Positions 1 to 3,000 of a DNA stretch of 28,052 bases are shown here, one piece after another (position 1 is the first letter of the stretch; each line of letters starts with the position of its first letter). The position numbers are program-made. This DNA is from a virus. Its lineage: Duplodnaviria > Heunggongvirae > Uroviricota > Caudoviricetes. The stretch lies in IMG/VR virus record IMGVR_UViG_2534682331_000010; one strand, 5' to 3'.

Positions 1-3000
1 ATGCTCACCGTTAAGCAGATTGAAGCAGCAAAGCCGAAAGAAAAACCATACCGCCTTCTCGATGGTAATGGCCTGTACCTTTATGTCCCTGTATCCGGGA
101 AAAAGGTATGGCAGCTTCGCTACAAGATTGACGGTAAGGAGAAAATCCTGACCGTCGGAAAATATCCGCTTATGACTTTGCAGGAAGCAAGGGATAAGGC
201 ATGGACTGCGAGGAAAGACATCTCGGTTGGCATCGATCCGGTAAAGGCGAAAAAGGCTTCGTCTAACAACAATTCATTTAGTGCGATTTACAAGGAATGG
301 TACGAGCACAAGAAGCAAGTCTGGTCAGTAGGCTATGCAACTGAACTTGCAAAAATGTTTGATGACGACATTTTACCTATCATCGGCGGCCTTGAAATTC
401 AGGATATTGAGCCGATGCAACTGCTGGAAGTAATCCGCAGATTTGAAGATCGCGGTGCAATGGAGCGAGCCAACAAAGCCCGCAGAAGATGCGGCGAGGT
501 TTTCCGTTACGCTATTGTCACTGGTAGGGCTAAATATAACCCGGCACCTGACCTTGCTGACGCCATGAAGGGATACCGCAAGAAGAACTTCCCGTTCCTT
601 CCAGCAGACCAGATCCCTGCATTCAACAAAGCACTGGAAACATTTTCAGGAAGTATCGTATCGCTCATTGCGACAAAAGTTTTACGCTACACAGCCCTAA
701 GAACGAAAGAGCTTCGTTCCATGCTATGGAAGAACGTCGATTTTGAAAACAGGATTATCACCATCGACGCCAGTGTGATGAAGGGACGCAAAATTCATGT
801 GGTTCCTATGTCAGACCAGGTGGTTGAACTTCTCACTACGCTAAGCTCAATCACCAAACCAGTATCAGAGTTTGTTTTTGCCGGGCGCAACGATAAGAAG
901 AAGCCAATTTGCGAGAACGCTGTACTGCTTGTGATCAAACAAATCGGCTATGAAGGTCTGGAAAGCGGTCACGGATTCAGGCATGAATTCAGCACGATTA
1001 TGAACGAGCACGAATGGCCTGCTGATGCTATTGAAGTGCAACTGGCACATGCCAACGGCGGATCTGTGCGCGGTATTTACAACCATGCGCAGTATCTCGA
1101 TAAGCGCAGGGAGATGATGCAGTGGTGGGCGGACTGGATTGATGGGAAATGATTAGACATTTTCTCTAGAAAATGTCTGCGCGCTTTTCACTCAACTTTA
1201 TTTCCACACTATAAAAACACAGAATCATAAGGAAAATTTGGAGGTATCTACAAAACTTGATAATATCGTGACATTTTCACAAACAGAGCAACAGGATAGT
1301 AGCCAAGATGAAATCTAGCACCAAACAAGATGTAGGGATACAATATTTAAGGGGGGTATCTGCTTTATATGTCGTATTTTTCCATTTTAGAGAGTTTTTA
1401 GATAATTTTTTGCCAATAGCTATGTTGGGTCAAAAATTTTTTAGCAATGGCGCTTTCGGTGTTGATATGTTTTTTATAATTAGCGGATATATTATTTCTC
1501 TTTCAACAGAAAAAAAGACAACTCAATTGTTAAGGGATATATCATAAAAAGATTTTTCAGAATATATCCTGCTTATTTCATAGCACTCTCTATTTTGATT
1601 ATTTTATCCCCAATAAAATATTCTCACCATGATATTTTACGTTCATTTATGATGATCCACCCTGATTATCAATATAATGCACCTTACTTTGGCTATGGTG
1701 TACTATTTACAGCATGGACATTAACATACGAGATATATTTTTATATAATATTTCTAATAGGTATGTTTTTCTCACACAAACATCGCATTATATTTACATC
1801 AACAATTGCAATATTTGCTATGATATCAATACAGCTTATTTTCAACAAATCAATAAACATTTTCCATCAGGAACAAATTAAAAATGGCGCAGGGATATTG
1901 AATGTCCCAGGAAATATAATGGTTATAGACTTTATATATGGAATGTTTATTTATAAGATTAGAAATCATTTAAAATTAAATAAATATTCTATCGCAATAT
2001 CATTTTTACTTATATCAATTGGATTTATAACAATACAATCAGGAGTAAACGCTGGGCATGGTCCACTGCAATACGGGCTTTACTCCCTAATGATTGTTCT
2101 AGGGGTTGTTATGTACGAGAAAAATAACAAAATTACCGAGATTAAGCCATTGGTTTTTCTTGGAGATATCTCATACTCAGTTTATTTGTATCATGTGATA
2201 ATTGCTACATGTGCATATTCACTCCTATTAAAAATAGGATTTTCAGGATTATCTATGTTCTCTATGATGACAGTTTTATCAATATTTCTTGCGTATATTT
2301 CATATGTTTTAATTGAAGTTCCATCAGTTAAGGTAGGGCATTTAATGTTAAAAAAACAAACGTAAGGTTAAATATTAAAAATGTTCTTCATGGACAATAG
2401 TAAAATACCACCTCCTGAGGAGTTTGTTTAGGGATAACAATAAAAATAGGCATCCAAAATGAATGCCTTTTTTATTACTGAATAAGATAAGCAAAAAAGC
2501 TACAGGCCAATTCGCCAGAAGTGTTGTCTCTTACTATTTTTATAGTATTATCGACGACGCCTGCTGAAATATTTGTTGCAACATCAGTTGATGTCGCAAT
2601 CACACCAATAGACGATGTATTTTGAATTGATTTTATTGTTAGAGGAATTTGTACTGATGCAGATCCATCGGGAATGATAATTATTCCTGTTTGTTTATCT
2701 GGATGGCTTGGTGAATCATTATTTATGAGCCTGCAGTTTGTTGGGCCTACGCTCGCCCCTCCATTAATGACTGTATTATATAGATATGCACTAGCACCAC
2801 CACCTGCATTATCAAAAATGGAAATATCTGCCGCCCTGCCACTAGTAAGAGTGCAATTAATTACCCTTACATTCGTTACTGAGTTGACAAGAAGATCCCC
2901 GAGTTGTTCATCTACGAGGTTGTTATATTGGATGATGCAATTGTTTAGAGTTACATTAGAAGGTGAAAATATGTTCTTTGTTATTTCCACCCCCCATTTT

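What the first reader, a model, noticed from the sequence alone, without database searches (positions are those of the whole stretch)
1153..1307. Integrase abuts the tailspike module; candidate attP with an inverted repeat
The order int - (155 bp) - acyltransferase - tailspike is the arrangement across attP in a P22-type phage map, not the arrangement expected in an integrated prophage, where int and the tailspike sit at opposite ends. Either the sequence derives from virion or excised circular DNA, or the attachment site lies upstream of int outside the window. The intergenic region holds an 11-bp-arm inverted repeat right after the int stop.
Basis: inference. Interest (0 to 1): 0.45.

Follow-up and report, generated by a model that had tools for sequence, protein, structure and literature searches.

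The report
Ordinary integrase–conversion gene spacer, not attP
The 155-base gap between the integrase and the acyltransferase gene is not the phage attachment site: this prophage belongs to the Sf6/HK620 group, whose attachment site lies upstream of the integrase (just outside the window), so the gap is an ordinary spacer.

Summary
The order is int (1-1152, +), a 155-bp gap, an acyltransferase gene (1308-2365, +) and the tailspike (2475-4298, -). A perfect inverted repeat with 11-nt arms (1155-1165/1168-1178) starts 2 nt after the int stop and exceeds chance.

The headline reading, attP in the gap, is wrong.
- The integrase is 98% identical to HK620 Int (IntS type) and unrelated to P22 Int.
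- The HK620 and Sf6 records annotate the attP core about 160-176 nt upstream of the int ATG.
- Chromosomal contigs that match the window exactly, or with one mismatch, over 7 kb show host fadL-yfdF-mlaA-yfdC-tRNA-Arg(CCT). The tRNA ends 161 nt before the window's first base.
- int, gap and acyltransferase are therefore contiguous in the integrated prophage.
- An intact relative has 16-bp direct repeats (CTGCAGGGGACACCAT), one at argW and one beyond xis/torI.
- The core and Int arm-type motifs are absent from the gap.

The gap is the AT-rich left edge of an Sf6-oac-like conversion cassette. It holds a hairpin at the int 3' end (a possible weak terminator) and a probable promoter (TTGGAG-17-TAATAT). 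The arrangement is already known; interest is low. Side notes: the acyltransferase is frameshifted at an A7/A8 run, and an IS5-family element sits at the palindrome centre in a relative.

The parts
1..1152 (+). IntS-type (P4-like) tyrosine integrase, 383 aa. Its attachment site lies upstream, outside the window.
   Evidence: Pfam domains Arm-DNA-bind_3, Phage_int_M and Phage_integrase. It is 98% aa identical to HK620 Int and 96-98% nt identical to the Sf6, CUS-3 and HK620 int genes. In the matching contigs L006 and L007, tRNA-Arg(CCT) ends 161 nt before this ATG.
1144..1152 (.). Mosaic joint: nucleotide homology to other IntS-type phages stops in the last int codons.
   Evidence: Megablast matches to Sf6, HK620, CUS-3 and others end at window 1144-1148, and the alignment diverges from there on. 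GC falls from about 0.47-0.49 to 0.25-0.33 across the joint.
1155..1178 (+). Perfect palindrome with 11-nt arms and a 2-nt spacer. It forms the int 3'-end hairpin and is a possible weak terminator or RNA-end stabiliser.
   Evidence: It is not listed by the consensus terminator scan, because no T-run directly follows the stem. It is not conserved in the E. whittamii copy.
1140..1194 (+). Extended interrupted hairpin that pairs the last int codons with 1181-1194, followed by ACTTTATTT.
   Evidence: RNA fold of -17.7 kcal/mol, z -4.0, matched or beaten by 1 of 200 shuffles. A lower stem also appears in the fold of the E. whittamii copy, but that fold is not significant.
1166..1169 (.). CTAG at the palindrome centre. 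It is the insertion point of an IS5-family element (ISKpn26) in E. coli 730V1.
   Evidence: L001 reads ...CATTTTCT-CTAG-[IS]-CTAG-AAAATGTCT..., with CTAG duplicated on both sides.
1238..1266 (+). Putative sigma-70 promoter of the acyltransferase gene: -35 TTGGAG (1238-1243), 17-nt spacer, -10 TAATAT (1261-1266).
   Evidence: Read directly from the sequence. It scores 8 of 12, below the scan's threshold, so it was not listed. Both hexamers are unchanged in the 88%-identical E. whittamii gap, while the spacer carries 3 substitutions. The Sf6 record annotates a putative oac promoter at the equivalent place.
1270..1278 (+). Third copy of the 9-mer GACATTTTC (the palindrome half-site), 4 nt after the putative -10.
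   Evidence: The 9-mer occurs only 3 times in 28 kb, all inside this gap. A third copy arises in 298 of 200,000 shuffles. It is not conserved in E. whittamii. Its function is unexplained.
1308..2365 (+). Acyl_transf_3 lysogenic-conversion gene (Oac-like), frameshifted here at an A7 run (1510-1516).
   Evidence: Pfam PF01757 on the intact 364-aa allele. It is 36% identical to Sf6 Oac over 118 aa, E 4e-10. The run is A7 in the window, against A8 in 730V1 (both copies), IMG/VR L027 and E. whittamii.
2448..2468 (.). GC-containing hairpin flanked by T-runs on both strands. It is a probable two-way terminator between the convergent acyltransferase and tailspike genes.
   Evidence: The terminator scan lists it on the - strand. 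The + strand reads AGGCATCCAAAATGAATGCCT followed by TTTTTATT.
2475..4298 (-). P22-type tailspike, 607 aa, with an N-terminal head-binding domain.
   Evidence: Pfam Head_binding, E 6.5e-66. The gene is annotated 'phage head-binding domain-containing protein' in 730V1.

Best explanation

In this type attP lies between xis (torI) and int, about 160-176 nt upstream of the int start. After integration the order is therefore argW/attL, int, conversion gene, tailspike, the rest of the phage, xis, attR, dsdC. Interval 1153-1307 is never cut by integration.

The interval is the AT-rich left edge of a horizontally acquired O-antigen-type acyltransferase cassette, the same position and gene order as oac in Sf6. 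Three elements are inferred rather than shown:
1. A hairpin at the 3' end of the int message, which probably ends or stabilises the weak, autoregulated int transcript.
2. A promoter (TTGGAG-17-TAATAT, 1238-1266) with a 5' leader that drives the acyltransferase in the lysogen.
3. A terminator at 2448-2468 that closes the cassette.

The confidence of 0.9 applies to 'not attP; attachment site upstream; ordinary spacer'. The promoter assignment is about 0.6 and the terminator role of the hairpin about 0.4.
For: 1. Integrase identity: 98% to HK620 Int and no significant similarity to P22 Int.
2. The HK620 and Sf6 records annotate the attP core upstream of int. The CUS-3 prophage record has the attL core at 1-16, int at 192, and the attR core at its far end.
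3. L006 (0 mismatches) and L007 (1 mismatch) match the window over 7,152 nt. Both carry host fadL-yfdF-mlaA-yfdC and tRNA-Arg(CCT), which ends 161 nt before the int ATG. The stretch between tRNA and ATG closely matches the HK620 attP int-side arm. Two further assemblies, L010 and the complete genome of 730V1, show the same junction.
4. The intact relative OkiPb01711 has argW-intS-tailspike...torI-dsdC, with the 16-bp direct repeat CTGCAGGGGACACCAT at both ends, 41 kb apart.
5. The core is absent from the whole window even with 3 mismatches. No tRNA gene is found. No Int arm-type motif (GGGTAAAA, up to 1 mismatch) lies in 1153-1307.
6. Published statements: attP lies between int and xis in Kapi1, Sf6, HK620 and KplE1 (PMC8787464), and the intS promoter overlaps attL (PMC2951348).
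7. Cassette nature: the GC drop, the end of homology at 1144-1148, and the same gap plus gene found with only a 47-nt int remnant in a second 730V1 prophage inserted in sbcB.
8. Both promoter hexamers are unchanged in E. whittamii, and Sf6 has an analogous annotated oac promoter.
Against: - attR of this particular prophage was not seen. The window ends in the nin region, and the matching NCBI contig ends about 26 kb after the int start.
- The hairpin is AU-rich, lacks an adjacent U-run and was not called by the terminator scan.
- The hairpin is the least conserved part of the gap in E. whittamii.
- The promoter matches only 8 of 12 consensus positions and was not called.
- The third 9-mer copy is not explained by this model.
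- No expression data are available.
Confidence: 0.9

Rival explanations
1. The interval 1153-1307 is attP, as in P22. The inverted repeat would be the core or an Int-binding element, and the window would derive from virion or circular DNA.
For: The gene order matches P22, where the attP core lies 30 nt after the int stop, between int and the conversion genes. A strong palindrome sits at that position.
Against: The interval is uninterrupted in at least four chromosomal assemblies, with argW and host genes upstream of int. The integrase is HK620/Sf6-type, whose attP is upstream. The gap has no core, no tRNA match and no arm-type motif. The same interval also sits intact inside a second prophage integrated at sbcB.
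Confidence: 0.01
2. The palindrome is an operator for a dimeric DNA-binding regulator, with the third GACATTTTC copy at the promoter acting as an auxiliary half-site. Together they would control the acyltransferase, or int read-through, in the lysogen.
For: It is a perfect 24-bp palindrome. The half-site 9-mer is found only three times in 28 kb, all within this gap, and the third copy overlaps the predicted transcription start.
Against: All three copies are mutated in E. whittamii, where the acyltransferase ORF is intact. The palindrome lies about 85 bp upstream of the -35, which is far for a repressor. No candidate regulator was identified. The IS5-family insertion that splits it in 730V1 leaves an intact acyltransferase ORF.
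Confidence: 0.1
3. The hairpin is a sib-like RNase III processing site. It would destabilise read-through (anti-terminated) int transcripts, giving retroregulation of int.
For: A long interrupted hairpin of about 20 pairs spans the int stop codon, at -17.7 kcal/mol and z -4.0. Lambda uses such a site distal to int, as summarised in PMC2951348.
Against: In this recombination type int is uncoupled from the pL/xis transcript in the prophage and is controlled by autoregulation at attL (PMC2951348). The hairpin stays linked to int in both the phage and prophage states. The upper stem is not conserved in E. whittamii. Other IntS-type phages carry unrelated sequence after int.
Confidence: 0.08
4. The palindrome and the repeated 9-mer have no function. 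They would be by-products of the recombination that joined the cassette to int, or neutral AT-rich sequence.
For: They are not conserved in the only diverged copy, and the changes there are not compensatory. They are split by an IS element in 730V1 without loss of the neighbouring ORFs. The cassette is rare: the full query (the gap plus the gene) is matched in 1 of 5,426 complete E. coli genomes.
Against: The statistical excess over shuffles is strong. Hairpins after the int stop are annotated or predicted in relatives: an annotated terminator in HK620 and a fold with z -3.75 in OkiPb01711.
Confidence: 0.2

Closest known systems
Shigella phage Sf6 int-oac-tailspike region (AF547987)
   Same: The order and orientation are the same: int, then acyltransferase, then a convergent tailspike. 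The int gene is 96.8% nt identical. The attP core lies upstream of int. The int-oac gap, also 155 bp, carries an annotated putative oac promoter, and a terminator follows oac. Both conversion genes are Acyl_transf_3.
   Different: The gap sequences are not homologous, so the equal length is a coincidence. The acyltransferases are only distantly related, 36% over 118 aa. The gene here is frameshifted.
HK620 / KplE1 (CPS-53) / Kapi1 IntS-TorI recombination module at argW
   Same: Int is 98% identical to HK620 Int. The same argW 3'-end core (CTGCAGGGGACACCA) and int-side arm are present in contigs matching the window. int and xis lie at opposite prophage ends (PMC2951348; PMC8787464).
   Different: HK620 and OkiPb01711 have no conversion gene between int and the tailspike. 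torI and attR lie beyond the window and were not seen for this prophage.
Phage CUS-3 int-neuO-endosialidase region (CP000711)
   Same: It is a prophage at argW with the order attL core, int, O-acetyltransferase, tailspike. Its acetyltransferase carries a repeat tract.
   Different: In the CUS-3 record neuO is annotated only by a heptanucleotide repeat tract (19 copies of AAGACTC) on the opposite strand to int. The gene here has a single A7/A8 run, and its phase variation is unproven.
Salmonella phage P22 int-attP-gtrABC-gene 9 region (NC_002371)
   Same: The coarse order is the same: integrase, conversion genes, tailspike.
   Different: The integrase family is unrelated (BLASTP E 0.13). P22's attP is downstream of int, whereas here it is upstream.

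Membership tests
Phage attP site (tyrosine-integrase attachment site) located in 1153-1307 | A core sequence identical to the host attB (here the argW 3' end) | tested here: not met
   CTGCAGGGGACACCA has no match in the window with up to 3 mismatches. No tRNA-like sequence is found.
Phage attP site (tyrosine-integrase attachment site) located in 1153-1307 | The site is split into attL and attR in the lysogen, with host DNA adjoining it | tested here: not met
   The interval is contiguous between int and the acyltransferase in chromosomal contigs L006, L007 and L010. In 730V1 it is interrupted only by an IS element.
Phage attP site (tyrosine-integrase attachment site) located in 1153-1307 | Flanking Int arm-type binding repeats | tested here: not met
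   The repeats annotated in the HK620 attP arms share GGGTAAAA. No match with up to 1 mismatch lies in 1153-1307.
Sf6/HK620/KplE1-type (IntS-TorI) recombination module | An IntS-type integrase with an Arm-DNA-bind_3 N-terminal domain | tested here: met
   Pfam domains, 98% identity to HK620 Int, and annotation as 'prophage integrase IntS' in RefSeq genomes.
Sf6/HK620/KplE1-type (IntS-TorI) recombination module | The att core at the argW 3' end, about 160-176 nt upstream of the int ATG, with the int promoter region in the attL arm | tested here: met
   This was seen in contigs matching the window over 7,152 nt (L006 with 0 mismatches, L007 with 1), not in the window itself, which starts at the ATG. 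The arm closely matches those of HK620 and CUS-3.
Sf6/HK620/KplE1-type (IntS-TorI) recombination module | The excisionase TorI and attR at the opposite prophage end | not testable with these tools
   The window ends in the nin region and the matching contig ends early. The feature was seen only in the relative OkiPb01711 (torI, then the attR repeat, then dsdC) and in CUS-3.
Prophage lysogenic-conversion acyltransferase cassette (Oac-like moron) | An Acyl_transf_3 membrane acyltransferase between int and the tailspike, with deviant GC and its own promoter and terminator | tested here: met
   Pfam PF01757, GC of 0.25-0.33 against 0.47 in int, and a terminator at 2448-2468. The promoter is only predicted.
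Prophage lysogenic-conversion acyltransferase cassette (Oac-like moron) | An intact, expressed gene that modifies O-antigen | tested here: not met
   The reading frame is broken at the A7 run 1510-1516 in the window. Activity and substrate cannot be tested here.
Rho-independent (intrinsic) terminator at 1155-1178 | A G+C-rich stem directly followed by a U-run | tested here: inconclusive
   The stable hairpin is real. However, it has only 3 G-C pairs of 11, GCGCGC lies between the stem and TTTT, and the consensus scan did not call it. The extended hairpin 1140-1194 is followed by ACTTTATTT.

The most novel reading that the evidence does not exclude
The perfect palindrome and the third half-site copy at the acyltransferase promoter could form an undescribed regulatory device, either an operator or alternative RNA pairing. 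It would couple int 3'-end formation to expression of the conversion gene. The A7/A8 run would add slipped-strand on/off switching of O-antigen acylation in an E. coli Sf6-like prophage.
Probability: 0.08. Interest if true: 0.35.

Novelty: already known. Interest (0 to 1): 0.08.

Why it matters
It matters mainly as a caution. Gene order alone does not locate attP in P22-like phages, because the integration modules are mosaic. P22-type Int has attP after the int stop, whereas IntS-type Int has it before the int start. For IntS-type phages, 'int next to the tailspike' is the normal prophage arrangement and says nothing about excision or virion origin.

The case also shows how provirus trimming at gene boundaries can remove the tRNA/attL junction that would settle the question: the window, like two IMG/VR contigs, starts exactly at the int ATG. 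The biology itself (argW integration, IntS/TorI, Oac-like conversion cassettes) is well described.

Tried and rejected
- A tRNA scan of the window found nothing. Rfam at a permissive threshold over 900-2600 found nothing.
- Walking to attR with the NinX protein returned only unrelated lambdoid prophages, because the nin region is mosaic. That route was abandoned.
- No complete E. coli genome carries the whole prophage (best coverage 71%). attR was therefore shown in relatives only.
- Searches for diverged copies of the gap, to test hairpin covariation, gave little. Genome contigs yielded one diverged copy (E. whittamii). Viral contigs and the metagenome scan yielded only identical copies. No covariation test was possible.
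- The Sf6 int-oac gap has the same length of 155 bp but no homology, so the equal length was rejected as meaningful.
- The 9-bp direct repeats at 1156 and 1270 were considered as target-site duplications of a small insertion. This was rejected because no terminal inverted repeats lie between them.

Full report
**Observation**

The window opens exactly at the ATG of a 383-aa integrase gene (1-1152, +; stop TGA at 1150-1152). A 155-bp gap follows (1153-1307). Next comes an Acyl_transf_3 gene on the same strand (1308-2365), and then a convergent P22-type tailspike gene (2475-4298, -).

The inverted repeat is as described: arms 1155-1165 and 1168-1178, 11 nt each, perfectly complementary, 2 nt apart, beginning 2 nt after the int stop. 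It is the longest perfect short-spacer inverted repeat in the 28-kb window. Only 5 of 20,000 shuffles of the gap contain one as long.

**Where the attachment site really is**

The integrase is 96-98% identical in DNA to the int genes of Sf6, HK620, CUS-3 and many E. coli prophages annotated 'prophage integrase IntS'. At protein level it is 98% identical to HK620 Int and has no significant similarity to P22 Int.

The P22 record places the attP core 30 nt after the int stop, between int and gtrA. The HK620 and Sf6 records instead place the attP core about 160-176 nt upstream of the int ATG, on the xis side. The CUS-3 prophage record starts with the attL core, has int at 192, then an acetyltransferase and the tailspike, and ends with the attR core.

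The literature states the same. In Kapi1, as in Sf6, HK620 and KplE1, attP lies between int and xis, so the two genes end up at opposite prophage ends (PMC8787464). The intS promoter overlaps attL (PMC2951348).

**Direct test on this sequence**

An exact-protein look-up found contigs that match the window over 7,152 nt. The Logan contig SRR446899_155 has 0 mismatches, and GCA_000357005.2 contig APYC01000035.1 has 1.

In both contigs int is preceded by the host genes fadL, yfdF, mlaA and yfdC and by tRNA-Arg(CCT). The tRNA's 3' end (…CTGCAGGGGACACCA) lies 161 nt before the int ATG. The stretch between them closely matches the int-side arm of the HK620 attP.

Two further assemblies show the same junction: L010 and the complete genome of E. 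coli O19:H7 730V1. int, the 155-bp gap and the acyltransferase are therefore contiguous in the integrated form.

An intact relative, E. coli OkiPb01711, shows the whole layout: argW-intS-tailspike … torI-dsdC. The 16-bp direct repeat CTGCAGGGGACACCAT is at both ends, 41 kb apart.

Within the window there is no tRNA gene. There is no match to the core even with 3 mismatches. No Int arm-type motif lies in the gap.

The window is identical over 5.4 kb to an IMG/VR provirus contig that also starts at the int ATG. This suggests trimming at a gene boundary removed attL.

**What the gap is**

Homology to other IntS-type phages stops at 1144-1148, and GC falls from about 0.47 to 0.25-0.33. The gap therefore belongs to the acyltransferase cassette.

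The same gap plus gene, preceded by only a 47-nt remnant of the int 3' end, sits at the end of a second 730V1 prophage. That prophage is inserted after codon 16 of a gene starting MMNDGKQQSTFLFHDY. From memory this is sbcB; the identification was not tested. An E. whittamii copy likewise carries an int remnant.

The layout mirrors Sf6 int-oac-tailspike, where a putative oac promoter is annotated in a non-homologous gap of the same length. The two acyltransferases are distant relatives, 36% identical over 118 aa.

**Inferred working parts**

1. As RNA, the palindrome folds at -11.6 kcal/mol (z -2.8). Together with the last int codons it forms an extended hairpin over 1140-1194, at -17.7 kcal/mol (z -4.0), followed by ACUUUAUUU.
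   - It was not called by the consensus terminator scan.
   - It is the least conserved part of the gap in E. whittamii, and the changes there are not compensatory.
   - HK620 has an annotated terminator after int, and OkiPb01711 has a strong hairpin there.
   - I rate a weak-terminator or 3'-end-stabiliser role at about 0.4.
2. TTGGAG (1238-1243), a 17-nt spacer and TAATAT (1261-1266) form a plausible promoter 42 nt before the ATG.
   - It scores 8 of 12 and was not called by the scan.
   - Both hexamers are unchanged in E. whittamii, while the spacer carries 3 substitutions.
   - I rate this assignment at about 0.6.
3. A hairpin with T-runs on both sides at 2448-2468 closes the cassette.

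**Unexplained**

The half-site 9-mer GACATTTTC occurs three times in 28 kb, all inside the gap. The third copy (1270-1278) lies just after the putative -10. It is not conserved in E. whittamii. All other available copies are identical to the window, so conservation could not be tested further.

**Verdict**

The feature is real but ordinary. It is the int-conversion gene spacer of an IntS-type P22-like prophage at argW, and it is not attP. The arrangement is already described for Sf6, HK620, CUS-3, KplE1 and Kapi1.

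Noticed in passing
window 1510-1516 (and a second A-run difference near 2343-2349): The acyltransferase is frameshifted by an A7 run. Intact alleles have A8: both 730V1 copies, IMG/VR L027 and E. whittamii. A7 also occurs in L010, L011 and L028. Both states occur with the same int allele, which suggests recurrent slippage and possibly phase variation. A second A-run length difference near the 3' end changes the C-terminal tail in one 730V1 copy.
   Followed up: partly
window 1166-1169; L001 4166-5369: In E. coli 730V1 an IS5-family element (ISKpn26) is inserted exactly at the CTAG in the centre of the palindrome, with CTAG duplicated on both sides. The insertion splits the hairpin but leaves int and the acyltransferase ORF intact.
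   Followed up: yes
L005 5683-7297 (E. coli 730V1, second locus): A second copy of the gap, acyltransferase and tailspike lies at the end of another P22-like prophage. That prophage is inserted after codon 16 of a gene starting MMNDGKQQSTFLFHDY (sbcB from memory). The copy is preceded by a 47-nt remnant of the intS 3' end. This is a trace of cassette exchange between phages with different integration modules.
   Followed up: partly
window 1156-1164, 1169-1177 (-), 1270-1278: The 9-mer GACATTTTC occurs only three times in the window, all within the 155-bp gap. The third copy lies 4 nt after the putative -10 of the acyltransferase promoter. About 0.15% of shuffles produce a third copy.
   Followed up: partly
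window 24765-25847 (+): A 360-aa OmpC/NmpC-like porin gene (Pfam Porin_1 in identical neighbours) is inserted on the opposite strand, between the Q antiterminator and the holin and lysis genes. It looks like a moron shared with many lambdoid prophages.
   Followed up: no
window 1 (left edge); L027, L028: The window and two IMG/VR provirus contigs start exactly at the int ATG.
   Followed up: yes
window 4509-6400: A P22-like immI region lies next to the tailspike. It has an antirepressor (P22_AR_N/C) on the - strand and an Arc/Mnt-type gene on the + strand, followed by a P63C-domain gene at 6597-7658.
   Followed up: no
L024 2866-4065 (E. whittamii): In E. whittamii a T-to-G change turns the window's short ORF (ATG at 1172, 13 codons) into an in-frame upstream extension of the acyltransferase ORF (399 aa). 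This is probably not meaningful.
   Followed up: no
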